From Candidatus Thorarchaeota archaeon (GTDB lineage Archaea > Asgardarchaeota > Thorarchaeia > Thorarchaeales > Thorarchaeaceae), in assembly GCA_048882325.1 (NCBI GenBank), contig JBHLRS010000011.1:1-64000 (forward strand): a DNA stretch of 64,000 nt, read 5' to 3'. Of the stretch, positions 6,684 through 24,929 are shown piece by piece (within the stretch, counting starts at the first letter, position 1; the number at the start of each line of letters is the position of its first letter). Both the position numbers and the translations under genes were made by a program. The notes under the pieces are model-generated. The model had not been told where the DNA came from. It saw only the letters and a list, made by a program, of their open reading frames with translations, and did not search any database.

Positions 6684-7841
6684 TCATTTCAAACATTCAG
6701 CTAGCAAGTCGACAATATCAACCACACGAATTGAGCTGTTAATCTGTCTAACACCAGAACTTAAGTTGGTTTCACAAAACGGACAAGCAGTCACGATGAT
6801 TTGTGCGCCAACCTCCTCTGCGCTCTTCACCCTATCAGCTGCAATTCTCTTTGACAGCTCTGCATCGTAGGAACGGAGTCCTCCACCTGCACCACAGCAC
6901 ATTGCTGCTTCCCGATTTGTCTCCATCTCGACAAGCTTGGCATTTGAAATAGCTTGGATCATCTCCCGAGGTTCGTCATAAACTCCTGCTGCTCTAGAGA
7001 GATGACAAGGGTCGTGGTAGGTCACTATTATCTCGTCTTGAGATTTCAAATTGATTTTCTTCTCTTTGATAACTTCCTGAAGGATTTGTGTCACATGAAC
7101 TACCTCTGGCAGCCCAACACCCAGTTTTGGATAGTCATCCCTGAGAGTCTTTAAGCATCCTGCACAGGTAACAATAATCTTCTCTGAACCTGAATTCCTC
7201 ATGACCTCTCCAAGTTTCTCTGCATTCCTTTTCGCATCCTCAGTTTTGCCAGTACGAAGCATCACACTACCGCAGCATGGTTCTTCTTCGAGTACCATAA
7301 AATCGATACCTGCAGTCTTGAGGACTTTGGCGGCAGACACTGCAATATTGGGGAGGCGGATACCTGCTGTGCATCCGGTATAATAGAGTACCTTGCTGCT
7401 TGATGGAACCTCAAAACCAACCTCCTTGACCCAGTCTCGCTTTATGTGAGTAACCTCTTCATATGGATTATCATATTCTCTGATTTTCCTCGCAATCTCA
7501 TCACGAACCTCATTTGGAATGTCACTTAACACTGCTCTTACTTGTTCGAAGCAATCAGAGGGATTAAATTCTGCCGCACATATCTCGGTGCAGTTTCCAC
7601 ACAATGTACATGTGAAAAGTGCCTCAGCATTCTCAGAAGTCCTCTCGAGTGTACCATCAAGAAGTGCCAGAGCCACCTGAATTCGACCACGCATGAAGCT
7701 GGTTTCAAATCCGGAGGAGTTTTTCCAGACAGGGCACACGCCATCAAATCCTCTATCTTCATAGACTGCATTTCTACAGAGTCCACACCTGCGACACTGC
7801 ATCAGGTTCTCGACGAGCTCATCCAAGTCAATCTCTGTCAT
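6684..7841 (-). CDS. GlcF/HdrD-like Fe-S oxidoreductase (4Fe-4S dicluster plus two CCG domains)
   Basis: CRRCGLC, CTLCGNC...C, GC, CCG, YHDPCH, CCGAGGG, ACPFC. Confidence 0.9.
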   Translation of the reverse strand: MTEIDLDELVENLMQCRRCGLCRNAVYEDRGFDGVCPVWKNSSGFETSFMRGRIQVALALLDGTLERTSENAEALFTCTLCGNCTEICAAEFNPSDCFEQVRAVLSDIPNEVRDEIARKIREYDNPYEEVTHIKRDWVKEVGFEVPSSSKVLYYTGCTAGIRLPNIAVSAAKVLKTAGIDFMVLEEEPCCGSVMLRTGKTEDAKRNAEKLGEVMRNSGSEKIIVTCAGCLKTLRDDYPKLGVGLPEVVHVTQILQEVIKEKKINLKSQDEIIVTYHDPCHLSRAAGVYDEPREMIQAISNAKLVEMETNREAAMCCGAGGGLRSYDAELSKRIAADRVKSAEEVGAQIIVTACPFCETNLSSGVRQINSSIRVVDIVDLLAECLK

Positions 7842-7843
7842 TG

Positions 7844-9250
7844 TTAGATTCCTCCTAAGACTCCTGGGTTCATTATGTTGTTTGGGTCAATCGTGTTCTT
7901 GATAAGCTTCAAGAAGGTCATGTAGTTGTCCATGTCCTCGATGGCATCCTTCCAAAACTCTGCAAGTTTGAATGGGACCGCTCCCGATCTAAAGAGATTC
8001 TTCGCAATCTCCCCGTGCGCTTCCACTATCTTTTGCTCCTCTTCTTTGTCCTGTGAATCAAAGAATAGGTGTGGGTACATGTTCATTGAACTGTGACCTG
8101 TTTGAAACCCTGCAGTATGGCCTAAGAACTTGTACTTATCCATAATTTCCTCTATGATTTCTACAGACCTATGGGAATTCTTTGGGGTCTGATGATGATA
8201 GAGTGTCCGCCAATGCCATCCATGAGCGTATGATGCACGTGCAAAATTCCAAAGACGCCCCTGCCACTCCTGCTCTGGCATCTCTGGAACATTCAAAACT
8301 TTGCCCCCTAGTTTCTCGCAGATGCTTCGAGCGAGTTTCGCATCACTCTCAACTATATCTTCTCGAACACCTCCTATTGTCATCGATACTGTCCGAGGCG
8401 CGTGCTCAAAAGGTGGAAATCCAAGCTCCTCCGAAAGCATGTCCATGAACAGGTCAAGAACCTCTCCAGAATAAATTGAGGTGAAGAGACCGTTGATATC
8501 GTTCTGTTTTATCTCGACAAGAAACTGCTCTGCTTGTTCTACTTCTTCAAACCCGTACATGTTGTAATCAAAATACTTCACTCTCTTGTATGTCTTCACA
8601 GATACTTTTGTGATTATTCCGAAACTCCCACAAGATCCAATGAATAGACCAGTGAGGTCGGGTCCAAAAGCGTAACGAATGAATGGTCCTGGCGCATTTG
8701 GATTAGCTTCTGAACCAGTTTGAATTACCGTACCATCAGGCAAGACCACCTCAAGTCCAAGAACCATTTCCCCTGTGCTTCCATAAAGACTTGAGCCAGG
8801 TCCAGCTCCATTCACTGAAACATTGCCTGCTACGGTGCAGATGAGTGAAGACTCTGGATAGACAGGTAGGAAGAGGTCATGTTTTGACAGGAACTTATCC
8901 AATGCTCCATATGTGACTCCTGCGCCAACAGTCACAGAGCGAAGGTCTTCAAAAAGCTCAATCGTTTCTAGCCTCAGTACTTCAACAACAATGCCTCCCG
9001 GTTTCGGAATCGCCTCACCCTGGAGACTTGAGCCACCTGACCTTGGAGTCACTGGAATCTTGTGTTTGTTAGCTAGTGCTAGTATCTGGGAAACCTCAGA
9101 TGTGTTTGCTGGACGAACAACTGCAGCAGGTATCACCGGTTTTACTGCCATCGAAGCAGTCTGTGAATAGGCCAGCAACACATCTGGTCTTGTGGAAACA
9201 TATTCTTCACCAACTATCGCTTCTAGCCTCTTGATTACCTTCTTGTCCAT
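7844..9250 (-). CDS. FAD-binding oxidoreductase, GlcD/D-lactate dehydrogenase (VAO) family
   Basis: PRSGGSSL.G, GLEVVLPDG, DLTGLFIGS.G.FGIIT, IKNTIDPNNIMNPG. Confidence 0.9.
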   Translation of the reverse strand: MDKKVIKRLEAIVGEEYVSTRPDVLLAYSQTASMAVKPVIPAAVVRPANTSEVSQILALANKHKIPVTPRSGGSSLQGEAIPKPGGIVVEVLRLETIELFEDLRSVTVGAGVTYGALDKFLSKHDLFLPVYPESSLICTVAGNVSVNGAGPGSSLYGSTGEMVLGLEVVLPDGTVIQTGSEANPNAPGPFIRYAFGPDLTGLFIGSCGSFGIITKVSVKTYKRVKYFDYNMYGFEEVEQAEQFLVEIKQNDINGLFTSIYSGEVLDLFMDMLSEELGFPPFEHAPRTVSMTIGGVREDIVESDAKLARSICEKLGGKVLNVPEMPEQEWQGRLWNFARASYAHGWHWRTLYHHQTPKNSHRSVEIIEEIMDKYKFLGHTAGFQTGHSSMNMYPHLFFDSQDKEEEQKIVEAHGEIAKNLFRSGAVPFKLAEFWKDAIEDMDNYMTFLKLIKNTIDPNNIMNPGVLGGI

Positions 9251-9712: not shown

Positions 9713-10591
9713 TTGTTGCAACGGAATGGAGAGGAGTTACCAATCTTGACGAAATATGATTCAAACCTCATTGAAGGTCATTTCGACAAGGACCCTACAA
9801 AAGAATGGGAACGTTTGGATAATTCTCCAAAGGGAAAGGTCCAGTTTCACATTCACCAGCATTACCTTCAGAAATATATCAAGAGAGACTCTCGAGTACT
9901 TGAAGTTGGGTCTGGACCAGGTAGGTTCACTATCGAATTAGCAAAACTTGGAGCTAAAGTATCTGTAGCAGATATCTCTGGGGAGCAGCTTAGACTAAAT
10001 GAGGAAAAGGTCAAAGAAGCAGGGTTTGAAGACCAGATTGAGTGGAGAAAGAAATTAGACATCCTCAATCTAGAAGGAGTTCCTGACAACGAGTTTGATG
10101 CGACAGTTTGCTACGGTGGTCCACTCAGTTATGTCATGGATCTACTTGATACAGCTATCATAGAAACCATTAGAGTTACGAAACCTGGGGGAATTATTCT
10201 CTCAAGTGTGATGTCATGTCTGGGTTCTTTCCACCATTTTCTTAATGGTATTTTTGACGAATGGGAAGACGTTGGTCCGGACCTATATGATGAATGTTCG
10301 AAAACAGGTGATGTTATGGGCAAATTGGCTGGTAGCAGTGGTCATCATTGTCACATGTTCCGCTGGAGTGAATATAAGGAAACGCTCTCCAAGCATCCTG
10401 TTGAGATTCTAGAAGCTTCTGCGGCAAACTTCCTCTCAAATGGGTCGTTTAATGATGAATTCCTCACAAGTCTAATGGATGATGAAGAGAAGTGGAACAT
10501 GTTCTTGAAATGGGAACTTGACTTCTGCAGAGAGCCCGGTGCAATAGATGGCGGCACACACATGATTGCCATCCTGAGAAAACTTCCCTAA
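9713..10591 (+). CDS. Class I SAM-dependent methyltransferase
   Basis: VLEVGSGPGRF, DIS, FDATVCYGGPLSY, RVTKPGG; true start may be the TTG at 9746. Confidence 0.9.
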   Translation: MLQRNGEELPILTKYDSNLIEGHFDKDPTKEWERLDNSPKGKVQFHIHQHYLQKYIKRDSRVLEVGSGPGRFTIELAKLGAKVSVADISGEQLRLNEEKVKEAGFEDQIEWRKKLDILNLEGVPDNEFDATVCYGGPLSYVMDLLDTAIIETIRVTKPGGIILSSVMSCLGSFHHFLNGIFDEWEDVGPDLYDECSKTGDVMGKLAGSSGHHCHMFRWSEYKETLSKHPVEILEASAANFLSNGSFNDEFLTSLMDDEEKWNMFLKWELDFCREPGAIDGGTHMIAILRKLP

Positions 10592-11238
10592 TCTCTATGC
10601 TCTTTCACAATATCAAGAAACTTCTTTACATTTTCAGTGATTACTTCAAACCTACCCTCTTTGATTGCTTTCTTGTTAGTGATTGCCCCACCAACACCAA
10701 GAGCATAAGCTCCAGCTTCGAGCATTGGCCCTGCAGTTTCCAAGTTCACTCCTCCTGTTGGAACGAGTGGAATGTGTGGCAATGGGCCTCTGATTGCTTT
10801 AAGATATGACGCACCGCCGACAGTTCCACACGGGAATACCTTCACCGCATCCGCACCCATGGTGTATGCATCAAAAATCTCAGTGGGAGTAAGAGCGCCC
10901 GGAATGATTGGTTTTCCATGTTTGATTGCTGTTCCTATCAAATCTCTTGAGTAGTTCGGACTCACGATAAACTCGCTTCCCGCTTTAATTACTTCTTCAG
11001 CCATTTTTCCGTTAACAACAGTACCTGTTCCAATGAGTACCTTGTCCCCAATCTTGTCTACAAGCTGTTTGACTACTTCGACCGCTCCTGGTACGCTCAT
11101 CGTCACTTCGATGATACCAACCCCACCATCTAGAAAAGCATCTGCGACCTTGAATGCTATTTCTGCAGACTCGACGCGGATTATTGGAATAAGGCCCGTT
11201 TCATAGATGAGTTTCATTACTCTCTCCTTTGTCCACAT
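10588..11238 (-). CDS. eda: KDPG/KHG aldolase
   Basis: IEVT, IGTGTV, FIVSP, PGALTPTE, VKVFP, PTGGV. Confidence 0.92.
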   Translation of the reverse strand: MWTKERVMKLIYETGLIPIIRVESAEIAFKVADAFLDGGVGIIEVTMSVPGAVEVVKQLVDKIGDKVLIGTGTVVNGKMAEEVIKAGSEFIVSPNYSRDLIGTAIKHGKPIIPGALTPTEIFDAYTMGADAVKVFPCGTVGGASYLKAIRGPLPHIPLVPTGGVNLETAGPMLEAGAYALGVGGAITNKKAIKEGRFEVITENVKKFLDIVKEHRD

Positions 11239-11244
11239 CTCAAT

Positions 11245-12240
11245 TCACCTATCGATACGAAGCCCTCTTTCTCTACCTTTGATGAGTTTCTCAACCTCTG
11301 ACTTGTAGACGAATGCAAGATCTCCAGGTACAGAGTGCTTCAATGCAGAAAATGCTGACCCGAAATCAACAGCCTTCTGTAGATCTTTCAACTCTAAATA
11401 ACCATAGATGAAACCTGCGCTACAAGAGTCTCCTCCACCAAGCCTATCTACTACCTCAACATCATAAACAGGACTCCGGTAGACCTTACCATCTGAGTAA
11501 GCAAAGACTGACCACTTGTTCAACCAGACCGATAGGGTCTCTCTAAGTGTTATTACAACTACTTCGAATCCGAATTTGTCAATAAGTTTAGCAGCCACAT
11601 CTTCGTAGTCTTTCCCTTCAATTCCGTAGACAACCTTCGTGTCTTCTTCAGTTGTGATTAGGATATCAATGTACTCTGATGCAGTTTCTGTGAATTTCTG
11701 CGCTTCTTTTGGAGTCCACAGTTTACCTCGGTAGTTCACATCATAGGATACCTTAGCTCCTTGTTCTTTTGCCACCTTGAGGGCTTCATCAGTCACCTCT
11801 GCGCAGGTTCTACTCAGAGCAGGAGTGATCCCGCTCGTGTGAAATAACCTAGTTCCTGTCAAGATTTTCTTCCAGTCAACCTCACCAGATTTGATTTTAC
11901 TTATGGCTGACTCCTTCCGGTCATAGATGACCCGATTTGCTCTGGGAGCGGCGCCAAATTCGACAAAATACACTCCACAGCGACTGTCTGGATCCCAGAG
12001 AATATGAGATGTATCAACTCCGTGCTCTCGAGCCTTATTCCTGATGAAATGTCCGATAGAGTTGTTTCCCAGCTTGGTGACGTATGCAGAGTTCAACTCC
12101 AACCTTGCACAAGCAACTGCGACATTCATCTCAGCTCCACCAGCATGAGCATTGAAACTCTCTGTCTGTTCAAACCTCTTGAAGTTCGGAGGCGAGAGGC
12201 GAAGCATCACTTCTCCAAAGCTAACGACATCATAACCCAT
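11245..12240 (-). CDS. kdgK: 2-keto-3-deoxygluconate kinase (PfkB family)
   Basis: FGEVMLRLSPP, GGAE.NVA, VIYDR, SGITPALS, DVNYR.KLW, DRLGGGD, KHS..GD. Confidence 0.88.
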   Translation of the reverse strand: MGYDVVSFGEVMLRLSPPNFKRFEQTESFNAHAGGAEMNVAVACARLELNSAYVTKLGNNSIGHFIRNKAREHGVDTSHILWDPDSRCGVYFVEFGAAPRANRVIYDRKESAISKIKSGEVDWKKILTGTRLFHTSGITPALSRTCAEVTDEALKVAKEQGAKVSYDVNYRGKLWTPKEAQKFTETASEYIDILITTEEDTKVVYGIEGKDYEDVAAKLIDKFGFEVVVITLRETLSVWLNKWSVFAYSDGKVYRSPVYDVEVVDRLGGGDSCSAGFIYGYLELKDLQKAVDFGSAFSALKHSVPGDLAFVYKSEVEKLIKGRERGLRIDR

Positions 12241-12313
12241 TTCTCACAACTCAGTGTGGTTAACAAGTGCTACTCTCTTATGGAAATGTTAAATCTGTCG
12301 TTAAGAAGGAGCA

Positions 12314-14626
12314 TTACGAAAACTCAGTCCGTGCAATTACTTCATCTTGCACGAAGGGATCAAGTTCAATGAAGTATGCACTATACCCTGCTACTCTGAC
12401 TATGAGGTCGCGGTGTTTCATTGGGTTCGCTTTAGCGTCCTCAAGAATTTCCCTAGAAACCACATTATATTGCACATGGAATCCGCCCATTTCGAAATAT
12501 GCGTCCACCATGCCAATGAACTTCTTTCTTCTTGACTCAGTGTTAAAGAAGTCAGGGGTGAACTTCATGTTGTACAGTGTGCCATTGTAACACAGAGAAT
12601 GGTCTAATCTGGCAACCGACTTCATGGCCGCTGTGGGTCCATTGATGTCTCTATTCTGAGTGGGCGAAACTCCATCAGAGATCATGTATCCAGCTTTTCT
12701 CCCATCAGGAGTTGCCCCGAGTACTTCTCCCTGTGGGATGTACATTGATACAGAGAAGAGAGCTCCATGATATGGTCCATTCCTGGTTGTTATCCTGCTT
12801 TGAATTGATTCACAAAATGCTCTTCCGGTTTCTCTAGCGAGAAGATCCACACTCTCGATATCATTTCCAAACTTTCTTGGATCGTTCTCTAGTTTGATCC
12901 TTAATTCCTCATGTCCTTCAAAGTCAGCAGCGAGTACTCCAAGCATCTCATCCATTGTGATTTGCTTTTCCTCAAAGATATACTTGCGAAGTATCTCAAG
13001 TGAGTCAGCTACTATAGCTATTCCCACTCCCATTATTCCACCAGAGTTGTAGAATGCGCCTCCTTCTTGTAGTGTCTTTCCAGACTCATTGCAACCCTGG
13101 ATGAGCGATGATATCAAGGGTGTTGGAGTATTTTCTGCGAGGATGCCTGCTGCGACTCTGTCTGCATTCGTTAGCATTTCAACATTATAATCCAATTGTT
13201 CCTGAACTGCCAACCATAAGTCGTCAAATGATGTGAAATCGCGAGGGTCACCTGTTTCTCGACCTACCAGTTTGCCGGTCTTCGGATCTCTCCCATTGTT
13301 CAATGTGATCTCAAGTATTTTAGGTAGGTTGACGTATCCAATGTTCTGTCTCGGGTCTGACTTCCCACCAATAACCGGTTCAACGCAACCAAGAATCGAG
13401 TAGTCATGTGCTTCCGATGGGTCAGTGCCCTTCTCAATCATCATAGGGATTATTGCATCATCGTTGAAGAGACCTGGCATACCTAATCCCTTCGAGATGA
13501 CATCTACAACCTGCAGTTTAATTTCCTCAGGTGAGTTCCTGTGCCATCGAAACGAAACACTAGGTTGAGTGACTCGAATGTTACCTGTAGCTTCAAGGAC
13601 AAGTCTTGTGAGATCATTTGATGCATCAGTCCCATCAGCGTGTTGGCCACCAATTGTGAGGTTCTGAAACATTGGATGACCTGCAAATGCCACACTGTAG
13701 TATTCATTTCTTATTTTGATGATTGAGGTCAGTTTTACCCAGAGCAGCTCGATGAGTTCGATTAATACTTCCTTTGCTACACGTCCGCGCTTGATATCCA
13801 TTTCATAGTAGGGATACATGTATTGGTCAAACCGGCCTGTGGATATAGAGTGTCCATTGGATTCAGTCTGAATCAATAAGTGAACAAACCAGAATGCCTG
13901 AAGCGCTTCGTGGAATGACTCCGCAGGTTCAGCAGGTACTTTCTTACAGATTCTCGCAATCTCAATCAGCTCTTCTCTTCGCTGCTCACTGTCCTCATGC
14001 TTTGCTAGGTCAGTTGCTAGTTTCGAAAAGCGTTCTGCAAACCTGAGAACTGCAATCATCTCAGTCCTGACTGCATCGTAGTACTCTCCCTCACTATTCT
14101 CTATTTCATCTAGAATTCTTAAGATTCCCTTCTTCAGGACATTCTCATAATCAACGATAACGTGTCCAATCCCTGTTCCTGGAGCTCCTATTGTGAACAG
14201 CCCTGCCTTTGAGGCTTTGACTGACTCCTCTGGCATCATTTCTCCAGCAATTTCTGCTGTGCTCTTTCCTTCCCAGTACATGAAAACCTCCCTAAGGTTC
14301 TTCTTGTCTTGTTCACTGATTGAGAATCGTTCGGTTCTTCTCTTGTCAAACCTATCTAATTCCTCCTCAATCCATTTCCAGCTATACTCCGGGAACACCT
14401 GACAAGAACGAGGAGTGGGTCCCATGTTCCCAACAATCAGTTCCCCCGGTTCAATTCTGATTGTCATGTTGTCTAAGACATGTGCGAATGCACCTGCAAG
14501 TCGCGTCATTACTGGCTCTTGCTCATGTTCCTTAACATACTCAGTGAAGAGGACTGCTCTCTCTGATGATATCGTAGGCTCAGAATCAAGCATCAATTGC
14601 TTGAGCCGTTTACTCCGAGAAGTCAT
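12314..14626 (-). CDS. Glycyl radical enzyme, PFL2/diol-dehydratase-like
   Basis: Gly loop LIVRVAGYSAYF; single-Cys GCVEP; GHVIVDY; ESNGHSIS.GRFDQY. Confidence 0.92.
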   Translation of the reverse strand: MTSRSKRLKQLMLDSEPTISSERAVLFTEYVKEHEQEPVMTRLAGAFAHVLDNMTIRIEPGELIVGNMGPTPRSCQVFPEYSWKWIEEELDRFDKRRTERFSISEQDKKNLREVFMYWEGKSTAEIAGEMMPEESVKASKAGLFTIGAPGTGIGHVIVDYENVLKKGILRILDEIENSEGEYYDAVRTEMIAVLRFAERFSKLATDLAKHEDSEQRREELIEIARICKKVPAEPAESFHEALQAFWFVHLLIQTESNGHSISTGRFDQYMYPYYEMDIKRGRVAKEVLIELIELLWVKLTSIIKIRNEYYSVAFAGHPMFQNLTIGGQHADGTDASNDLTRLVLEATGNIRVTQPSVSFRWHRNSPEEIKLQVVDVISKGLGMPGLFNDDAIIPMMIEKGTDPSEAHDYSILGCVEPVIGGKSDPRQNIGYVNLPKILEITLNNGRDPKTGKLVGRETGDPRDFTSFDDLWLAVQEQLDYNVEMLTNADRVAAGILAENTPTPLISSLIQGCNESGKTLQEGGAFYNSGGIMGVGIAIVADSLEILRKYIFEEKQITMDEMLGVLAADFEGHEELRIKLENDPRKFGNDIESVDLLARETGRAFCESIQSRITTRNGPYHGALFSVSMYIPQGEVLGATPDGRKAGYMISDGVSPTQNRDINGPTAAMKSVARLDHSLCYNGTLYNMKFTPDFFNTESRRKKFIGMVDAYFEMGGFHVQYNVVSREILEDAKANPMKHRDLIVRVAGYSAYFIELDPFVQDEVIARTEFS

Positions 14627-14675
14627 CTCAAAACTTACTGTTTTTTCTGTACATTACTTTTCGCATCTGACACTC

Positions 14676-15845
14676 CTAGTTGAGCAATCTTGGCAGATAA
14701 TCATCAAGAATACCAAGTGCCTCATTGATCCTTTCTGTTGAAACAGCATAGCAGAGCCTGATAAAGCCCTCTCCAAACTGTCCAAAGGCTGTCCCGTGAG
14801 CCGTCACTACACCTGTTTCATTAATGAGTTTCTTTACAAGGTCGTAGGATTTCATCCCATAAGCTGATACATCTGGGAATGCATAGAATGCGCCCCCCGG
14901 CGGTTGTATGTCTACACCTTCAATTGCGCTTAGTCCCTTTGTTATTAGGTCACGCCTTTTCCGGAAGGTCTTGAGCATGTCGATAACACAACGTTGCGGA
15001 CCGATAGCTGCAGCACCTGCTGCTTTCTGTGCTATCGTTGTCGGCATAGCTATTACGTGTTCTTGGAGCTTCGTCATTGCTCCAATGATCTTACTGGATC
15101 CAGTAGAAGCGGCAATACGCCATCCTGTCATCGCATATGTTTTCGAGAGGGAAAAGATAGATACAGTCCTTTCCTTCATGCCTGGAATTGAACCAATGAA
15201 CTTCGGTTTTTCAGCCACATATCTGAACTTTTCGTAAGCCTCGTCAGCAATCACATAAATGTCCTTCTCGATACATAAATCTGCAATACGTTTCAATTCC
15301 TTGTTTGAAATGACGCCTCCGGTGGGATTGTTTGGTGAATTAAGAACTATCATCTTCGTTCTTGGTGTGATTTTCTCTTCAACGTCCTCAGCTGTGAGAC
15401 CAAAACCGTGTTCTTTCTTCAGTTGAATCGGAACAGGAACTCCCTGTGCAAGTTTGACGTGTGCATAATGACTCACGAATCCTGGATTCGGGTAGATTAC
15501 CTCATCACCTGGATTTACGATTACCAAGTTTGCTAGCATGAGCGCTCCCATCCCCCCAGCTGTAAGTATGATTTCGGTTTCAGGGTCTGCAACAATTCTG
15601 TTATCGCGTTTCAATTTCTGTGCCAGAGACTCTCTGACATCCATATACCCTGCGTTATGTGTGTAAGTTGTGAATCCCTCATCAATAGCTTCCTTTGCAG
15701 CATCTTTGATGTGTTTAGGTGTGTCAAAATCAGGGATACCAACAGTCATATCGAGAACGTCTGTTCTACCAATAATCTTGTTGTAAATTTCACGGACCTG
15801 GCTAGCGGGAACATCCAAATTTCTCTCTGCAAGCAAATTGATCAC
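14676..15845 (-). CDS. PLP-dependent class I/II (aspartate-type) aminotransferase
   Basis: G.PDFDTP, NSPNNPTG, DEAY, SLSKTYAMTGWR, GAFYAFP. Confidence 0.92.
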   Translation of the reverse strand: MINLLAERNLDVPASQVREIYNKIIGRTDVLDMTVGIPDFDTPKHIKDAAKEAIDEGFTTYTHNAGYMDVRESLAQKLKRDNRIVADPETEIILTAGGMGALMLANLVIVNPGDEVIYPNPGFVSHYAHVKLAQGVPVPIQLKKEHGFGLTAEDVEEKITPRTKMIVLNSPNNPTGGVISNKELKRIADLCIEKDIYVIADEAYEKFRYVAEKPKFIGSIPGMKERTVSIFSLSKTYAMTGWRIAASTGSSKIIGAMTKLQEHVIAMPTTIAQKAAGAAAIGPQRCVIDMLKTFRKRRDLITKGLSAIEGVDIQPPGGAFYAFPDVSAYGMKSYDLVKKLINETGVVTAHGTAFGQFGEGFIRLCYAVSTERINEALGILDDYLPRLLN

Positions 15846-16130
15846 CTATCTGAACGAACGAGGATATTCCCAGTTTATATAACCTATCGAATAGCCCTCT
15901 TTCATTTTAAAATCAAAAACCTTTCAATGCTCCATTAAAGGAATTTCATGGGAATGTTGAAGTAGTTCTTGAAGAAAGAACACTAACCGAGAGAGTCAAG
16001 CACTTTGGGAATTATAAGGCACAACCACAAACAAAAGGGCTGCTTGATAAGAGAGCAATATCCGCAATGAGAAACCTAATCAACATATACGCAAAGAAAG
16101 CAAAGTCTAGCTAGTTGGAGATACAGAAAA

Positions 16131-16601
16131 ATGGATGAACCGTCTGCTAAAGATGTTAGAAGTTTTGGAATGTCATCTGTAGCTGCTGCTCATACAGTCT
16201 ATGTGGAAGCAGTCAGGAAGAAATTCGGAAAACCAGGTCTTGAAGCTCTAGCAAAAGCTAACCGATTATATGGCCTAGAGCTCGGACAACAAGGTGTGAA
16301 AGATGGTAGGCTCATAAAAGGTGACCTGAAATCCATCTATGAATTCTTTGCTGCAGCTCGTCCCTACTCTGGTTTCGAATTGGAACTAGTCGACGTGACT
16401 GATAGGCTAATCGATGTAAAGGTGACTGGTTGCCCTTGGATAGACACATTCAGGTCAAAAGGTGCAAATGAAGATATTTGTCACTGGGTTACCAAGATTG
16501 ATGAAGGAATCGGTCAAGCAGTAGACGCCTCTTTATCTATGAAAATCCCAAAATGCATGATGCAGGGTGATGACCACTGTATCTATCGTTGGGAGAAGTA
16601 A
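16131..16601 (+). CDS. ATC-hydrolase/V4R-like Cys-containing small-ligand binding protein
   Basis: VTGCPW...IC...D......KCMMQGDDHC. Confidence 0.7.
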   Translation: MDEPSAKDVRSFGMSSVAAAHTVYVEAVRKKFGKPGLEALAKANRLYGLELGQQGVKDGRLIKGDLKSIYEFFAAARPYSGFELELVDVTDRLIDVKVTGCPWIDTFRSKGANEDICHWVTKIDEGIGQAVDASLSMKIPKCMMQGDDHCIYRWEK

Positions 16602-17923: not shown

Positions 17924-18964
17924 TTGAGAGGATTAATGAAAACTAAGAAGGGAGTTGGTAATGTTGAACTGCAGGAAGTCAAAGTGCCGCGACCCGCGAG
18001 TGATGAGGTGCTCCTAGAAGTCCTTGCCACAGGAATCTGCGGCACTGATTTACACATCAAACATGATAGTACATTCTACAAACCACCTGTCATATTGGGA
18101 CATGAATATATAGGCAAGGTAGTTGAAATCGGCGATGCAGTGACAGACATGCAAGTTGGAGACCGTGTTGTATCTCCTCCCAGAGCACATTGTGGACATT
18201 GCTATCAATGCATGACCGGACATGTGAATAGGTGTACAGCAACTGGTCAAAGAATACTAGGTTTTACTGTCAACGGATCTTTTGCAAAGTACCTCACTGT
18301 TCCAGGATATATCCTTCACCGTGTTCCTCCAAATGTGTCCTTAGATGAAGCGGCACTTGCCGAACCGACAGCCTGTGTGGTCCATGCTATAGTCGATAAT
18401 AATCTGGTTCGTCCGGGTGATGTTGTAGTTGTGCAAGGTCCCGGACCAATAGGTCTGCTTGCTGTTCAGATATCTAAAATCATGGGCGCAGGGAAAGTGA
18501 TTGTCACCGGCGTTACATCAGATAGGACTAGACTTGACATCGCGAAAGCGATTGGCGCCGACCTCACCATCAACGTTGAAGCTGAAGACAATCCTCTAGG
18601 ATTGATCCAAGAACACTCCAACGGTCTGGGTGCTGACACGGTGATTGAGGCTTCTGGCGCACTTGCTTCAAGTAGCCAAGCATTAGAATTTGTGAAAGTA
18701 GCTGGCAATATTTCGATAATAGGCATAATTGGACAACCAACAGAGATCAACCTAGATCTTATGGCAGAAAAGGAACTGAAGATGAGTGGGACATGGGGTT
18801 CAATTCCATCAGCTTGGGTAACTACTTTACGATTGATGGACCAAGGTATGATTAATGTCAAACCACTGATTACTCATAGAATTGCTCTGGATGACTGGGA
18901 GAGCGGTTTCAAACTACTAGAAACCCAGCAGGCTGTGAAAGTCGTTTTCACAGATCTTGACTAA
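17924..18964 (+). CDS. Zn-dependent alcohol/polyol dehydrogenase (MDR)
   Basis: GICGTDLH, GHE, C-x2-C-x2-C-x7-C, GPGPIG. Confidence 0.9.
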   Translation: MRGLMKTKKGVGNVELQEVKVPRPASDEVLLEVLATGICGTDLHIKHDSTFYKPPVILGHEYIGKVVEIGDAVTDMQVGDRVVSPPRAHCGHCYQCMTGHVNRCTATGQRILGFTVNGSFAKYLTVPGYILHRVPPNVSLDEAALAEPTACVVHAIVDNNLVRPGDVVVVQGPGPIGLLAVQISKIMGAGKVIVTGVTSDRTRLDIAKAIGADLTINVEAEDNPLGLIQEHSNGLGADTVIEASGALASSSQALEFVKVAGNISIIGIIGQPTEINLDLMAEKELKMSGTWGSIPSAWVTTLRLMDQGMINVKPLITHRIALDDWESGFKLLETQQAVKVVFTDLD

Positions 18965-19100
18965 TCCTCCATGTATTAAACTATGAGTTTGGTTTATGAT
19001 CACAAGATGGATGATGCATTAAGGACCTATTTGGTATCTCCGCAGACTGCCAACAGTGGGAGTCTAAAATTAAAAACTAGATAAAACTTAATAGCTTGGC

Positions 19101-20111
19101 ATGAGAAATTTCAGGAAACTGCTGAAGTTTGTGAAGTCCTTGAAGAAAACTAAACTAATTGAGATGTACACGAACATGGTAAGAATAAGAGAGTTCGAGG
19201 AAGCAGTTCATTCTTCTTACAGTGAGGGATTGATAGCAACTCCTGGACTGCTACATCTATATATTGGAGAGGAAGCTGTAGCTGTTGGAACTTGTGCAAA
19301 CCTCAGAGATGAAGACTACATTGTTAGCACTCATCGCGGCCATGGTCACTGTATAGCCAAGGGTGGAAACATGCGGAAGATGATGGCTGAGATCTGGGGG
19401 CGGCAAACTGGCTATTGTAAAGGCAAGGGAGGTTCTATGCACATTTCCGACCCTGAAATTGGAATTGTTGGTTGCAGTGGTATTGTTGGAGCAGGAAATC
19501 CAATTGCGGCTGGTGTTGGCTACTCCATTCAACGTAGGGGCACAGATCAGGTCTGCGTGTCATTCTTTGGTGATGGTGCCACAAATACAGGGGGATTTCA
19601 TGAAGGAATCAGTCTAGCTGCTGCTTGGAATCTTCCAGTAATATTTGTATGTGAGAACAACCTTTACGCCATTTCTGTGTCTGTTAGCAAAGCTTTCAAA
19701 GTGCAAAATATTGCAGACAGGGCATCTGGTTATGGCATTCCCGGCTCTATTGTTGATGGCATGGATGTGTTGGAAGTGTATAATGCTGTTGAAACAGCTG
19801 TGAAAAGAGCCCGTAATGGTAAGGGTCCCAGTCTGATAGAGTGTAAGACTTATAGATATCTTGGCCATATGCTCGGAGACCCCGATTTTGGCGTGGGTCA
19901 TTACAGATCGGATAGCGAGCTCAAGAGTTGGAAAGCACGAGATCCGATTGTCGCATTTAGAGAAAAGTTGTTGGAACAGAAGACTCTTTCACAGACCGAT
20001 ATAAAAAAGATTAATGAGAAGGTAAGGAATGAAGCTGAAGATGCAGTGAAGTTTGCAGAAGAAAGCCCGTTTCCCTCAACGGAAACTGCTCTTGATGATG
20101 TGTTCGTATGA
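19101..20111 (+). CDS. TPP-dependent dehydrogenase E1 alpha subunit (acetoin/pyruvate dehydrogenase type)
   Basis: HLYIGEEA, STHRGHGH, GKGGSMH, GDGA...ENN, TYRY.GH. Confidence 0.92.
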   Translation: MRNFRKLLKFVKSLKKTKLIEMYTNMVRIREFEEAVHSSYSEGLIATPGLLHLYIGEEAVAVGTCANLRDEDYIVSTHRGHGHCIAKGGNMRKMMAEIWGRQTGYCKGKGGSMHISDPEIGIVGCSGIVGAGNPIAAGVGYSIQRRGTDQVCVSFFGDGATNTGGFHEGISLAAAWNLPVIFVCENNLYAISVSVSKAFKVQNIADRASGYGIPGSIVDGMDVLEVYNAVETAVKRARNGKGPSLIECKTYRYLGHMLGDPDFGVGHYRSDSELKSWKARDPIVAFREKLLEQKTLSQTDIKKINEKVRNEAEDAVKFAEESPFPSTETALDDVFV

Positions 20112-20122
20112 GGTGATGATCA

Positions 20123-21154
20123 ATGAGCGATAGAGTAATGCAGCTTAACGAAGCCATAAACGAGGCTATTGCGCAGGAAATGGAGCGGGATTCTTCCGTA
20201 GTTGTTTTTGGGGAAGATGTTGAGTCTTTTGGAGGAGGAGGAGGAGTCTTCGGAGTTACAAAAGGATTGAAAGAGAAGTTCGGAGAGCGAGTCAAAGATA
20301 CACCCATGGTGGAGGCGGCTATTGTAGGAGCCGCTCTTGGGTCTGCTATAACTGGCTTGAGACCAATTGCGGAAATAATGTTTGTGGACTTCATTGGATG
20401 TGCCATGGATCAAATTCTTAACCAGTTAGCAAAAACGCGTTACATGTTTGGAGGGAGTATGAAGGTTCCAGCAGTAATTAGGTGTCCTAGCGGTTCGAGG
20501 TGGCCAGTTTCGTGCGGAGCCGCCCAGCATTCTCAGAGCCTAGAAGCGTTCTTCATGCACATACCCGGACTGAAGGTCGTTGCTCCATCCATGCCTTTCG
20601 ATGCCAAGGGATTGATGATTTCTGCAATTAGAGATGACAATCCAGTTATATTCATTGAACACAAGCTCACTTACTACGCCAAGCGATCACTAACATTGAG
20701 AGATAGCTACAAAACCCTTCTTCAACATGTTCCTCCGGAGGACTTCACAATACCAATTGGTGCTGCTGAAATAAAAAGAGAAGGCAACGATGTGACAATT
20801 GTCGCTACGATGATGATGGTTCACAAAGCTCTGAAGGCCGCAGAGGAGCTGAGTAAAGAAGGAATTGAAGCGGAAATAGTGGACCCCAGAACACTGGTTC
20901 CACTAGACACTGAAACGATAATTCAAAGTATCAAGAAAACAAGCAAAGCAGTAGTTGTCACGGAGGAAACGAAGACTGCAAGCACAGCCGCTGAAATTGG
21001 AATGGTAATAATGGAGCAAGGTTTCGACTTTCTTGATGCTCCGGTGATAAGAGTTTGTGCACCGGATGCGCCAATTCCACACAGTACAGTCTTGGAAGGT
21101 GCTATCATACCTCAAGAATCTGATATTGTAAGAGTGGTTAGATCAATCGTGTAG
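20123..21154 (+). CDS. TPP-dependent dehydrogenase E1 beta subunit
   Basis: GEDV, DTP..E.AIVG, EIMFVDF, AAQHSQ, FIEHK, DPRTL.PLD. Confidence 0.92.
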   Translation: MSDRVMQLNEAINEAIAQEMERDSSVVVFGEDVESFGGGGGVFGVTKGLKEKFGERVKDTPMVEAAIVGAALGSAITGLRPIAEIMFVDFIGCAMDQILNQLAKTRYMFGGSMKVPAVIRCPSGSRWPVSCGAAQHSQSLEAFFMHIPGLKVVAPSMPFDAKGLMISAIRDDNPVIFIEHKLTYYAKRSLTLRDSYKTLLQHVPPEDFTIPIGAAEIKREGNDVTIVATMMMVHKALKAAEELSKEGIEAEIVDPRTLVPLDTETIIQSIKKTSKAVVVTEETKTASTAAEIGMVIMEQGFDFLDAPVIRVCAPDAPIPHSTVLEGAIIPQESDIVRVVRSIV

Positions 21155-21372
21155 AGTATGGATTGTTAGATGTATGAGTGTAGCTGAATAAATTGTAATT
21201 GCTTAGCAAGATCGATTTAAATCATGTTCACGATTTAATCAGATTTTATATGCCGCCTTTCAACTTTATATAGGTCGCTTCTCTACCGCAGTTTTTAATT
21301 AGCTACTATTCCAACAAAATAAAACCGGACGGTCGTTTCAGCCAAACTCTATGCAGTGAGAGTGTTCCAAGA

Positions 21373-22755
21373 ATGATTGATGCAAATAAACTAACCAAAT
21401 TACTTATTGAAGCAATCGGGACGGATCGTGTGACAGACAGAGATTTTGACCTGATTGCTTACAGCAGGGACTTAAGCCCAGCAAAGCCAAAGCTTGCAAC
21501 GCATGTGGTTATGCCAGAAAACAGAGAGGAGATACAAAAGATTCTGAAAATTGCGAATAAGAACAACGTTCCAGTATACCTTCGAGGAGGAGGCGGATCA
21601 CATTGGGATGCTTACCTACCCCAGGAGCCTGGAATCTTGCTTGACATGGCGTGTATGAACAAAGTGGTTGAAATTGAAGAAAGAGATCTAACTGTGACAG
21701 TGCAACCGAACTGTACATGGGCAAAGATGGACAGCGAATTACGGGAGAGAGGGTTAACCTATCTATGCAGTGAAGCGGGGGGTCCCGCTATGACAGTTGG
21801 AGGTTCCGTCATGAAAGCGGGAGGTGGACCATACGGTACCGCCAAGTTTGGCTTTCATGGTGACCAAGATCTTATCTCCCTAGAAATGGTGCTACCCAAC
21901 GGAGATGTCGTTCACACTGGCTCGGCAGCCTGGCCCAGTGCAGGCAAATTTAAGAGGCAGTGCATTGGTCCCGATCTAGCAGGCTTGTTTATAGGAGCGG
22001 AGGGAACTCTTGCTATTTGCACAGAGCTAACCCTACGTGTACGTCCAGTCACTGATTTTAAGGAACGAATATTCGCTACCGTGGACAGTCTTGGTGATGT
22101 GATAAAGCTGGGACACTTCATGAATCGCCACGTTGGTGATGAATACCTTCAGGGATTCTATCTCTTTGTTGACCCTTCTAATCCTAATGTTTTCATGTTG
22201 ATGCTTGATGTGTTTGGATACGAAAAGGAGATAATTGACCACCGGACGAAAGGATTGAAAAAAGAGATCAAGAAACTGGGTGGCGTAATTGGAGACCCCG
22301 CTCCTGCCAACGATACCTACGATGGAATCCTCACAGGTCTATCGGATGTTTTTACTGCTGGGGTGTGGCACTTCTTTGGTTCAGGTACACTGAGGATTGA
22401 CGACATCGAGTTTCTCTACCGAGTTTGGCGCGAAGAGCTTTTGGAGAAAAGGGGCTATACAAAGGCTGCATTTGGAGGACAAATTCTGCCGCGGCATTGG
22501 CTGGCTTTCATGGTCACAAACTACAAAGAACCAGATGAGTGGGATGAAACAATTAAGCTGGCTGATGAGATCAATGAAATTGTACTCAACGGCCCAGTTG
22601 TACCCTATGGGATTGGAGGACGTGATGGATTTAGAACTTTCTTGGCTTCACGTAATACCGGCTATTATCGACTATTAAAGGAGATTAAGAAGACAGTTGA
22701 TCCGAACAACATCCTGCAGCGAGGCATACTTTTTCCAAAGGAGGAATTGCAATGA
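21373..22755 (+). CDS. FAD-binding oxidoreductase, GlcD family (second copy)
   Basis: RGGG, LEMVLPNG, GPDLAGLFIGAEGTL, IKKTVDPNNIL. Confidence 0.88.
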   Translation: MIDANKLTKLLIEAIGTDRVTDRDFDLIAYSRDLSPAKPKLATHVVMPENREEIQKILKIANKNNVPVYLRGGGGSHWDAYLPQEPGILLDMACMNKVVEIEERDLTVTVQPNCTWAKMDSELRERGLTYLCSEAGGPAMTVGGSVMKAGGGPYGTAKFGFHGDQDLISLEMVLPNGDVVHTGSAAWPSAGKFKRQCIGPDLAGLFIGAEGTLAICTELTLRVRPVTDFKERIFATVDSLGDVIKLGHFMNRHVGDEYLQGFYLFVDPSNPNVFMLMLDVFGYEKEIIDHRTKGLKKEIKKLGGVIGDPAPANDTYDGILTGLSDVFTAGVWHFFGSGTLRIDDIEFLYRVWREELLEKRGYTKAAFGGQILPRHWLAFMVTNYKEPDEWDETIKLADEINEIVLNGPVVPYGIGGRDGFRTFLASRNTGYYRLLKEIKKTVDPNNILQRGILFPKEELQ

Positions 22756-23948: not shown

Positions 23949-24260
23949 GCCATCCCTTTCAAAAATAGCAGGCATAGACGGATTTGTTGAAATCAGTGAA
24001 GAAAATACTGGTTCACTCTTGATGTCGAGGTTTTTAACAAACATAACCAAGATGAATCAAAATGAACTTAATCAAATCCAAACTGCTCCCGGTGTCAAGA
24101 ACCTCTCTTGAATTTTGAGAACATCGCTCTGTTCTGCCTTGCGAGAACTTCAATTCTAGATCTGAACACTTCGCAAAACACCGAAGGTGATATAAGTTGG
24201 CTAACTGGTCAACCACCTACATTATCAGTTATTCGCCGCGGTTGCCCTGAAGGTGAAATT

Positions 24261-24929
24261 ATGTCAAGCAAACGACAAGACATCGTTAAGCGATTCTCTA
24301 ACAGTTATGTGGCTGCAGTATCTGACGCTGCAGATGCCGTTGGTATTGGAGCTGTATGCATGGACAGTGGTATTGGACCGGTCAGCAAGAACAAACGGGT
24401 TGTTGGATTTGCACGTACTGCCAAGACTGCGCGCTCTCCTGCGAACCATCCATATGATGAAGAGCAGGTTGTCACTTTCATGACTTTAGCGTCACAGGCC
24501 AGTAAATATGATATCATTGTAGTTGACATGTCCGGAGCAACAGATTGTTCAGGATGGGGTCAGATAGTGACTCGTATTGCATTATCACACGGAGCTGTCG
24601 GAGCGGTTGTTGATGGAACAGTTAGGGACATAGCAGATGTTGATACTATGGACTTCCCTGTATTCGCACGAGGTCGCCATCCTGGTACTCTCAGAGGACG
24701 TCTGAATGTCGAATCGATAGGAGAATCAATAAAGTGTGGAGGGGTAACTGTGCATCACGGTGATCTTGTTCTTGGAGACGGAGATGGCGTTGTGGTGATA
24801 CCTCAGGACCGAATTGCAGATGTGGCAATAGCTGCCGATGAAATCATTTCGGCTGACTCATGGTGGGAAGAGAAGCTCAAGGAAGGCAAAGATCCACACG
24901 AGCTTCATAAGGAAAAGCCAATTCCCTGA
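24261..24929 (+). CDS. RraA/HMG-CHA aldolase family protein
   Basis: VSDA, WGQI, GAVVDGTVRD, V..GDLVLGDGDGVVVIP; AGGTGA RBS before ATG 24261. Confidence 0.85.
   Translation: MSSKRQDIVKRFSNSYVAAVSDAADAVGIGAVCMDSGIGPVSKNKRVVGFARTAKTARSPANHPYDEEQVVTFMTLASQASKYDIIVVDMSGATDCSGWGQIVTRIALSHGAVGAVVDGTVRDIADVDTMDFPVFARGRHPGTLRGRLNVESIGESIKCGGVTVHHGDLVLGDGDGVVVIPQDRIADVAIAADEIISADSWWEEKLKEGKDPHELHKEKPIP

What the first reader, a model, noticed from the sequence alone, without database searches (positions are those of the whole stretch)
10588..15845. Possible glycyl-radical Entner-Doudoroff route: aminotransferase-GRE-KDG kinase-KDPG aldolase operon
Seen: four co-oriented genes with gaps of about 50, 73 and 6 bp. 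No conventional aldonate dehydratase (IlvD/Edd, UxuA/UxaA or enolase superfamily) occurs in the window. Known: KdgK and Eda convert 2-keto-3-deoxy sugar acids to pyruvate plus a triose phosphate. GRE eliminases abstract H from a carbinol carbon, expel the vicinal group and leave a carbonyl next to a CH2. Inference: applied to C2/C3 of an aldonate, that chemistry gives exactly a 2-keto-3-deoxy acid, so the GRE may be a new radical sugar-acid dehydratase. With the aminotransferase it could instead act on an amino-sugar acid or hydroxylated amino acid. I know of no characterised GRE with this role.
Basis: partly seen in the sequence, partly recalled or inferred. Interest (0 to 1): 0.85.

Follow-up and report, generated by a model that had tools for sequence, protein, structure and literature searches.

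The report
Thorarchaeal radical enzyme feeding KdgK-Eda
An Asgard (Thorarchaeia-type) archaeon keeps a lineage-specific, uncharacterised glycyl radical enzyme in one operon with a sugar-acid kinase and aldolase, in a genome with no ordinary enzyme to make their substrate, so the radical enzyme probably makes that substrate by chemistry not yet described, though this is untested.

Summary
The four genes are real, at the stated coordinates, with gaps of 49, 73 and 6 bp. They encode an aminotransferase, a 770-aa glycyl radical enzyme (GRE), a KDG kinase and a KDPG aldolase.

- **GRE catalytic set.** It keeps the 1,2-eliminase residues (glycyl motif, Cys-x-Glu, the His164 equivalent). It fails every curated equivalog cut-off.
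- **Pocket.** At glycerol/propanediol dehydratase pocket positions it reads Ala, Phe, Arg-x-Asn, Tyr and Phe. These residues are invariant in 119 relatives.
- **Isolation.** It is one 50% cluster among 1.84 billion representatives, and orthologues occur only in the window's own archaeal family.
- **Co-occurrence.** Of 86 family genomes, 56 carry GRE, KdgK and Eda, 23 carry none, and 7 fragmented assemblies carry part. In one genome the GRE and the kinase are both broken.
- **No conventional feeder.** The genome has no IlvD/Edd, UxuA, UxaA, UxaC or enolase-superfamily dehydratase.

Points against the simple "gluconate" reading:
- The aminotransferase is separable from the other three genes.
- No lactonase or gluconate carrier was found.
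- The nearest GRE clusters sit in amino-acid-type contexts.

Verdict: a new GRE eliminase clade functionally tied to KdgK-Eda, substrate unproven. This scan found the same operon before in other Thorarchaeal genomes and reached the same conclusion.

The parts
14676..15845 (-). Class I/II aminotransferase, first gene of the operon
   Evidence: PF00155 at 3e-72. The best solved relatives are the Pyrococcus horikoshii aspartate/aromatic aminotransferases 1gd9 and 1dju, 293 bits. It passes no NCBIfam equivalog cut-off. An orthologue is present in 58 of 59 GRE-bearing genomes, but also in 4 genomes that lack the module, in unrelated contexts.
12314..14626 (-). Glycyl radical enzyme, 770 aa, eliminase type, uncharacterised clade
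   Evidence: PFL-like plus Gly_radical domains. TIGR01774 scores 753.5 bits; every equivalog score is below its cut-off. Glycerol dehydratase 1r8w scores 688 bits. The protein keeps RVAGYS, GCVEP and the equivalents of His164, His281 and Ser282. It changes N156A, Y339F, W445R, D447N and Y640F. Pocket positions are invariant in 119 clade members.
11245..12240 (-). 2-keto-3-deoxygluconate kinase (PfkB family)
   Evidence: PF00294. T. maritima KDG kinase 2afb scores 290 bits. In the alignment to the T. thermophilus KDG kinase, the GG motif, the Tyr, Tyr/Arg and NYR positions and the GxGD Asp are conserved. It is below the NCBIfam haloarchaeal equivalog cut-off, 306 against 440.
10588..11238 (-). 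KDPG/KHG aldolase (Eda)
   Evidence: PF01081. TIGR01182 scores 183.6, above its cut-off of 156. The alignment to T. maritima Eda keeps the IEVT Glu, the Lys in VKVFP and the PTGGV phosphate loop.
16131..16601 (+). ATC_hydrolase/MetOD1-like small protein, divergent from the operon; role unknown, possibly regulatory
   Evidence: PF14196 at 1e-11. It occupies the same divergent position in relatives.
15846..16130 (.). 285-bp divergent intergenic region, presumed promoter region of the operon
   Evidence: Position only; not analysed.
24108..24929 (+). RraA-like (HMG/CHA aldolase or oxaloacetate decarboxylase family) protein, displaced copy with an N-terminal extension
   Evidence: PF03737 at 2e-31. 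In most relatives this gene lies directly beside the ATC_hydrolase-like gene. It is present in 53 of 59 GRE-bearing genomes and in 1 of 23 genomes lacking the module.

Best explanation
The GRE is a new type of 1,2-eliminase. After activation in trans by the genome's only GRE activase, its thiyl radical abstracts H from a carbinol (or amino-bearing) carbon next to a carboxylate. The Glu of Cys-x-Glu deprotonates the substrate, and the His164 equivalent protonates the neighbouring leaving group. The product is a 2-keto-3-deoxy sugar acid (KDG or a close analogue). KdgK phosphorylates it and Eda cleaves it to pyruvate and glyceraldehyde-3-phosphate. The likeliest substrate class is a C6 aldonic or 2-amino-aldonic acid. 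Shown: gene identities, the catalytic residues, the clade's isolation, and co-inheritance with KdgK/Eda. Inferred: the substrate, the product, and the role of Arg426/Tyr431 as carboxylate binders.
For: (1) Operon with 49, 73 and 6 bp gaps. The order is conserved in relatives at 64-85% GRE identity.
(2) Of 86 family genomes, 56 have GRE, KdgK and Eda, and 23 have none; ten of those 23 are at least 93% complete. Seven have part, all fragmented assemblies. Presence varies within at least 7 genera.
(3) In G315 the GRE has 3 in-frame stops and KdgK has 2.
(4) No KdgK or Eda homologue survives in any genome that lacks the GRE module, so the two genes have no other job there.
(5) The genome has no IlvD/Edd, UxuA, UxaA, UxaC or enolase-superfamily dehydratase. 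IlvD/Edd is absent from 80 of 86 family genomes.
(6) The GRE keeps the Gly motif, Cys414-x-Glu416 and His155. The roles of Glu435 and His164 are taken from PMC13450708.
(7) Invariant clade-specific changes: Asp447 to Asn, Trp445 to Arg two residues earlier on the same strand, and Phe450 to Tyr431. Tyr431 aligns with HypD Tyr450, a carboxylate binder.
(8) KdgK and Eda keep their catalytic and substrate motifs and are closest to the T. maritima KdgK/Eda pair.
Against: - There is no biochemical evidence.
- No lactonase, GntP, TRAP or KdgT carrier was found, so the source of any aldonate is unknown.
- The aminotransferase has no role in a plain aldonate route, and it persists alone in 4 genomes that lack the module.
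- In the tree the clade groups (support 0.96) with uncharacterised clusters whose contexts suggest proline-like or other amino-acid substrates.
- Ordinary dehydratases do this reaction without radicals.
- Joint loss of adjacent genes can result from single deletions, and all the genomes belong to one family, so the counts are not independent.
- The genome is a MAG (93% complete, 4% contamination).
- The pocket was mapped by sequence alignment only, not on a structure.
Confidence: 0.45

Rival explanations
1. The GRE works with the aminotransferase on a hydroxylated amino acid or another carboxylate that is not a sugar acid. KdgK-Eda then either serve a parallel pyruvate-yielding branch of the same island or act on a later product.
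For: The aminotransferase heads the operon and is adjacent in 58 of 59 GRE-bearing genomes. The nearest tree neighbours have amino-acid-type contexts. P0144 sits beside two P5C reductase genes and a GntR. P0122 sits beside an SSF transporter and DAO-type oxidases. P0121 sits beside an M20 peptidase and a saccharopine dehydrogenase-like gene. The same genome carries a HypD-like GRE. Eda-family enzymes also cleave 4-hydroxy-2-oxoglutarate (established knowledge), and an RraA-like aldolase/decarboxylase co-varies with the module.
Against: KdgK is the best-conserved gene of the set (74-94% identity) and is never found without the module. It has no role in known amino-acid routes. The aminotransferase is the one gene that can exist without the others. 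No candidate substrate links all four genes.
Confidence: 0.2
2. The GRE is an ordinary small-diol dehydratase (glycerol, 1,2-propanediol or similar), and its position beside kdgK-eda is inherited synteny without shared function.
For: Glycerol dehydratase is the best-scoring solved relative at 688 bits, followed by propanediol dehydratase at 645 bits. Cys-x-Glu and the equivalents of His164, His281 and Ser282 are kept. All synteny evidence comes from one archaeal family.
Against: Asp447, Asn156, Tyr339 and Tyr640 are all replaced, and the Trp-His-Asp motif of glycerol and propanediol dehydratase reads Arg-Gln-Asn. These changes are invariant in the clade. The clade does not join the sequences carrying Trp-His-Asp in the tree. 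No aldehyde dehydrogenase, propanediol oxidoreductase or microcompartment genes lie nearby. GRE, KdgK and Eda are gained, lost and broken together.
Confidence: 0.12
3. The GRE is an alkyl- or benzylsuccinate synthase, as a close homologue is named in a public record and as Asgard GREs were read in PMC8163825.
For: P0012, 84% identical, is named 'Benzylsuccinate synthase alpha subunit' in NCBI. PMC8163825 labels Hermod- and Thorarchaeotal GREs as Ass/Bss in its tree.
Against: TutD scores 281 bits and MasD 292 bits, against 688 for glycerol dehydratase. The eliminase Cys-x-Glu and His164 equivalents are present. No small-subunit genes or fumarate-pathway genes lie in the locus.
Confidence: 0.02

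Closest known systems
B12-independent glycerol dehydratase (Clostridium butyricum, PDB 1R8W/1R9D) and GRE 1,2-propanediol dehydratase (Roseburia inulinivorans, 5I2A)
   Same: They share the fold, the glycyl motif, Cys-x-Glu, and the equivalents of His164, His281 and Ser282. These are the best-scoring solved relatives, at 688 and 645 bits. The same direct-elimination mechanism is expected.
   Different: N156A, Y339F, W445R, D447N, F450Y and Y640F. There is no adjacent activase. The host is archaeal. The enzyme is linked to KdgK-Eda rather than to aldehyde-processing genes. It does not group with the sequences carrying Trp-His-Asp in the tree.
trans-4-hydroxy-L-proline dehydratase HypD (PDB 6VXC) and the proline-derivative GREs
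   Same: It is an eliminase acting on a carboxylate-bearing substrate. Tyr431 aligns with HypD Tyr450, which binds the Hyp carboxylate. The nearest uncharacterised clusters show HypD-like contexts.
   Different: It scores 584 bits against the cut-off of 1100. It has His-Ser where HypD has Trp277-Asp278, and Phe where HypD has Ser334.
Conventional aldonate dehydratases of Entner-Doudoroff-type routes (Edd/IlvD family, enolase-superfamily gluconate dehydratase, UxuA, UxaA)
   Same: It sits in the same pathway slot, upstream of KdgK and Eda.
   Different: The fold and chemistry are unrelated: a protein radical instead of enolate or Fe-S chemistry. None of these families is present in this genome.
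Thermotoga maritima KdgK (TM0067, 2AFB) and Eda (TM0066, 1VLW/1WA3)
   Same: They are the closest solved relatives of the operon's kinase and aldolase, and the catalytic motifs are kept.
   Different: In T. maritima they are fed by UxuA/UxaA-type dehydratases (established knowledge). Here those are absent.
YbiW/PflD (1,5-anhydro-hexitol-6-phosphate GRE isomerases)
   Same: They are GREs that act on sugars and feed an aldolase (PMC13450708).
   Different: They score about 510 bits, and PRK09983 scores 585 against a cut-off of 1109. Their substrate is a phosphorylated anhydro-sugar. In the present operon the kinase resembles one that acts on a keto-deoxy acid.

Membership tests
Glycyl radical enzyme superfamily (PFL-like) | PFL-like barrel plus C-terminal glycyl radical domain with an RVxG motif | tested here: met
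   PF02901 at 8e-205 and PF01228 at 6e-33. RVAGYS is present, with the Gly at residue 747.
Glycyl radical enzyme superfamily (PFL-like) | A radical-SAM activating enzyme is available | tested here: met
   One TIGR02494 hit lies above the cut-off in the genome, at G000:C1:15728-16594 (317.6 bits), beside a different GRE. There is none in the window. Activation in trans is inferred.
GRE 1,2-eliminase class | A single catalytic Cys in a Cys-x-Glu motif | tested here: met
   GCVEP, with Cys414 and Glu416, is invariant in 119 clade members. The motif definition is from PMC13450708.
GRE 1,2-eliminase class | General acid equivalent to glycerol dehydratase His164 | tested here: met
   His155 aligns with His164 and is invariant.
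B12-independent glycerol / 1,2-propanediol dehydratase | Substrate-contact set Asn156, Tyr339, Asp447 and Tyr640 (list recalled from O'Brien et al. 2004, not read here) and the Trp-His-Asp motif | tested here: not met
   The aligned residues are Ala148, Phe320, Asn428 and Phe624, and the motif reads Arg-Gln-Asn.
HypD, CutC, HpfG, HpsG, PflD | NCBIfam equivalog cut-off | tested here: not met
   Scores against cut-offs: 584/1100, 561/1050, 591/1000, 527/1000 and 585/1109.
C-S cleaving GREs (IslA/IseG/HpsG) | Arg/Gln/Arg triad that holds the sulfonate (PMC13450708) | tested here: inconclusive
   By offset from the Cys, the triad positions read Thr151, His155 and Phe624, with no Arg on beta1 or beta8. 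No direct alignment to these enzymes was inspected.
X-succinate synthases (Bss/Ass/Mas) | Closest similarity to the alpha subunits, and presence of small subunits | tested here: not met
   TutD scores 281 bits and MasD 292 bits, against 688 for glycerol dehydratase. No small-subunit genes lie in the locus.
2-keto-3-deoxygluconate kinase | PfkB fold with the KDG-binding Tyr/Arg residues and the catalytic GxGD Asp (residue list from memory) | tested here: met
   2afb scores 290 bits. The aligned GG, Tyr, Tyr/Arg, NYR and GGGD positions are conserved against 1v19. The NCBIfam haloarchaeal equivalog cut-off is not reached, 306 against 440.
KDPG/KHG aldolase (Eda) | Family cut-off, Schiff-base Lys, general-base Glu and phosphate loop | tested here: met
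   TIGR01182 scores 183.6 against a cut-off of 156. The Glu of IEVT, the Lys of VKVFP and the PTGGV loop are present.
Classical or semi-phosphorylative Entner-Doudoroff pathway | An IlvD/Edd-type or enolase-superfamily aldonate dehydratase, plus aldose dehydrogenase/lactonase | tested here: not met
   There are no PF00920, PF03786 or PF04295 hits. The only MR_MLE hit is enolase. The only SGL hit is weak, 21.5 bits.

The most novel reading that the evidence does not exclude
This is a radical Entner-Doudoroff entry step. A glycyl radical enzyme dehydrates (or deaminates) a hexonic acid at C2/C3 to give KDG. It would be the first GRE known to act on a sugar acid and the first PFL-like GRE of archaea with an assigned function.
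Probability: 0.4. Interest if true: 0.8.

Novelty: new variant of a known kind. Interest (0 to 1): 0.66.

Why it matters
A 2026 review of the family (PMC13450708) lists no GRE that acts on a sugar acid. It also states that every PFL-like GRE of known function is bacterial and that archaeal ones are an open gap.

This clade gives that gap a concrete, testable case. It offers an enzyme, a candidate activase, two coupling enzymes for an assay, and a short list of substrates.

If confirmed, it would add a reaction class to GRE chemistry and an oxygen-sensitive way into ED-type sugar-acid catabolism in Asgard archaea of anoxic sediments. It would also correct the 'benzylsuccinate synthase' labels that underlie claims of hydrocarbon use by these archaea.

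Tried and rejected
- **Zn-dehydrogenase at 17924-18964 as an aldose dehydrogenase.** Rejected. It is closest to threonine dehydrogenase. It is a recent paralogue found in only four genomes, while a 62%-identical copy is present in most family genomes whether or not they carry the module.
- **Enolase-superfamily hit on contig 78 as a hidden gluconate dehydratase.** Rejected. It is glycolytic enolase.
- **Aminotransferase as an obligatory module member.** Weakened. Orthologues stand alone in G317, G326, G329 and G330, beside thioredoxin, EamA, pirin and other genes.
- **Extra gene between the GRE and KdgK in one genus as a pathway clue.** Rejected. It is a PAS histidine kinase.
- **Bacterial donor carrying the same cassette.** None found. 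The nearest clusters are 38-44% identical and sit in other contexts.
- **Literature search for a GRE linked to KDPG aldolase or 2-keto-3-deoxy acids.** Nothing relevant.
- **Side-chain geometry of Arg426 and Tyr431.** This could not be examined, because no model coordinates are available to scripts. No structure job was run.
Full report
**Observation**

Four co-oriented minus-strand ORFs lie at 14676-15845, 12314-14626, 11245-12240 and 10588-11238, separated by 49, 73 and 6 bp. They encode:
- a class I/II aminotransferase;
- a 770-aa protein with PFL-like and glycyl radical domains;
- a PfkB kinase;
- a KDPG/KHG aldolase.

The kinase is closest to the T. maritima KDG kinase 2AFB (290 bits). 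It keeps the residues aligned with the KDG-binding and catalytic positions of the T. thermophilus enzyme (the residue list is from memory).

The aldolase passes the TIGR01182 cut-off. It keeps the Glu, the Schiff-base Lys and the phosphate loop.

The aminotransferase is a generic archaeal AspAT/ArAT-like enzyme.

**Organism**

All close homologues come from Asgard MAGs named Thorarchaeota, Promethearchaeota and the like. The window is contig 11 of a 3.6-Mb assembly that is 93% complete.

**What the GRE is**

It passes only the broad PFL2/glycerol dehydratase subfamily model (753 bits). It falls far below every equivalog cut-off: HypD, CutC, HpfG, HpsG and PflD.

The best solved relative is C. 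butyricum glycerol dehydratase (688 bits), followed by propanediol dehydratase. In the residue-by-residue alignment:
- It keeps RVAGYS, GCVEP (Cys414, Glu416), His155 (the His164 equivalent) and His259-Ser260.
- The 2026 review PMC13450708 assigns Glu435 as the base and His164 as the acid of direct elimination.
- So the catalytic machinery of a 1,2-eliminase is intact.

The positions I recall as contacting glycerol are replaced: N156A, Y339F, D447N and Y640F. The Trp-His-Asp motif of the diol dehydratases reads Arg-Gln-Asn, and Phe450 becomes Tyr431. All of these except the Gln are invariant in 119 clade members.

Tyr431 aligns with HypD Tyr450 through the genome's own HypD-like paralogue. In HypD that Tyr hydrogen-bonds the substrate carboxylate (PMC7077986).

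Arg426 lies two residues before Asn428 on the same strand. It should therefore face the same way as the Asp447 position. This is an inference, not seen in a structure.

Loss of an Asp and gain of an Arg and a Tyr fit an anionic, carboxylate-bearing substrate.

**Isolation of the clade**

Among 1.84 billion 50%-identity representatives, the query's own cluster is represented by a single protein (72% identity, 1296 bits). The next representative is 42% identical (656 bits).

Across 400 Asgard genomes, orthologues (64-85% identity) occur only in the window's own family. The next hits are 41% identical.

A FastTree of 20 clade members and 137 representatives gave these results:
- The clade is monophyletic (support 1.0, stem 0.46).
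- It groups at 0.96 with five uncharacterised clusters.
- It does not group with the sequences carrying Trp-His-Asp.
- Deeper nodes are weak.

**Linkage**

The order aminotransferase-GRE-KdgK-Eda recurs in every related contig examined. It is usually divergent from an ATC_hydrolase-like gene and an RraA-like gene, and it is flanked by two FAD/CCG oxidoreductase pairs.

Across the 86 genomes of the family:
- The GRE is in 59, KdgK in 60 and Eda in 61.
- 56 have all three.
- 23 have none, ten of them at least 93% complete.
- 7 are partial, all fragmented assemblies.
- Presence varies within at least seven genera.

In G315 the GRE has three in-frame stops and has moved away, and KdgK has two stops. 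No KdgK or Eda homologue exists in any genome that lacks the module.

Caveats: adjacent genes can be lost in a single deletion, and kin are not independent samples.

**No conventional feeder**

The genome has no IlvD/Edd, UxuA, UxaA or UxaC. Its one enolase-superfamily hit is enolase itself. IlvD/Edd is missing from 80 of the 86 family genomes, including the whole genus.

**Points against the simple gluconate reading**

- No gluconate permease, TRAP carrier, KdgT or convincing lactonase was found.
- The neighbouring Zn-dehydrogenase is a threonine-dehydrogenase-like recent paralogue, not a module member.
- The aminotransferase is adjacent in 58 of 59 GRE-bearing genomes. It also survives in four genomes that lack the module, in unrelated neighbourhoods.
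- The clusters nearest in the tree sit beside P5C reductases, a proline-type transporter, amino-acid oxidase-like genes or an M20 peptidase. A carboxylate substrate of amino-acid type therefore cannot be excluded.
- A 2-amino-aldonate such as glucosaminate, treated HypD-style (H abstraction at the N-bearing carbon, loss of the 3-OH, hydrolysis of the imine), would also give KDG. It would reconcile both lines of evidence. This is speculation.

**Comparison with what is known**

The 2026 review lists glycerol and propanediol dehydratases, HpfG, HypD, HpyG, HpzG, CutC, IslA/IseG, HpsG, HplG, YbiW and PflD. It names no sugar-acid dehydratase. It states that all characterised PFL-like GREs are bacterial. 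Full-text searches found no GRE tied to KDPG aldolase.

A homologue 84% identical is named benzylsuccinate synthase in a public record, and PMC8163825 read Asgard GREs as Ass/Bss. The scores (281-292 bits against 688) and the Cys-x-Glu motif argue against that reading.

**Earlier notes of this scan**

The scan describes the same operon in other Thorarchaeal genomes. Its follow-up agents reached the same verdict. I re-derived the main points here.

- the separability of the aminotransferase;
- the family-wide tallies;
- the family-wide absence of IlvD;
- the Tyr431/HypD Tyr450 correspondence;
- the amino-acid-type contexts of the nearest clusters.

**Verdict**

This is a real, conserved operon holding a new GRE eliminase clade that is functionally tied to KdgK-Eda. 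The most likely role is radical formation of their 2-keto-3-deoxy-acid substrate (about 0.45). The substrate is unproven.

Noticed in passing
L010:1498-3864 (G000:C30:11902-14253): A second GRE of this genome scores 1264 bits against the HypD equivalog model (cut-off 1100). Its Cys loop reads GCVT where C. difficile HypD has GCVE, so the Glu of the Cys-x-Glu motif, said to be retained in all eliminases, is a Thr. It has no adjacent activase. Similar 37-41% hits are widespread in Asgard genomes.
   Followed up: partly
L011:997-4370 (G000:C1): A third GRE (799 aa, Cys loop GCLEN, Gly motif RVTGYN) falls below all cut-offs. It sits beside the genome's only GRE activase, which would have to serve three GREs.
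   Followed up: partly
window 17924-24929: This block holds a Tdh-like Zn-dehydrogenase paralogue, PDH-type E1 alpha and beta without E2/E3 nearby, an FAD_binding_4 plus CCG pair, and an N-terminally extended RraA-like gene. The dehydrogenase paralogue and the RraA-like variant are shared only with three relatives (G360, G371, G381). It looks like a lineage-specific insertion or rearrangement next to the operon.
   Followed up: partly
window 6684-9250 and 21373-23948: Two GlcD-like FAD plus HdrD/GlcF-like CCG oxidoreductase pairs flank the operon here and in relatives. They could oxidise or reduce D-lactate or glycolate, that is, products of the aldolase. This was not tested.
   Followed up: no
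L063:7219-10650 and L064:8772-12215: In one genus a 1143-1147 aa PAS-rich histidine kinase is inserted between the GRE and KdgK.
   Followed up: partly
L067:6649-8001: An IS605 OrfB/TnpB-type gene is inserted between Eda and the SCP2 gene in G334. Several genes of that long-contig assembly appear frameshifted.
   Followed up: no
L069:4362-16102: A bacterial metagenome cluster carries two GRE-activase pairs (one GRE has a Pro-Arg-Cys-Asn strand like the Thor Pro-Arg-Gln-Asn). It also has a sugar ABC transporter, an FGGY kinase, an aldehyde:ferredoxin oxidoreductase, a ThiS-like gene, a 2-hydroxyacid dehydrogenase and a cupin-type PGI. It is an uncharacterised sugar-linked GRE system.
   Followed up: no
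whole family: The IlvD/Edd family is absent from 80 of 86 genomes of this archaeal family. This suggests they cannot make branched-chain amino acids or pantothenate by the usual route.
   Followed up: no
P0012 (public record of Thorarchaeota AB_25): A protein 84% identical to this GRE is named 'Benzylsuccinate synthase alpha subunit'. The residues and scores found here do not support that name.
   Followed up: partly
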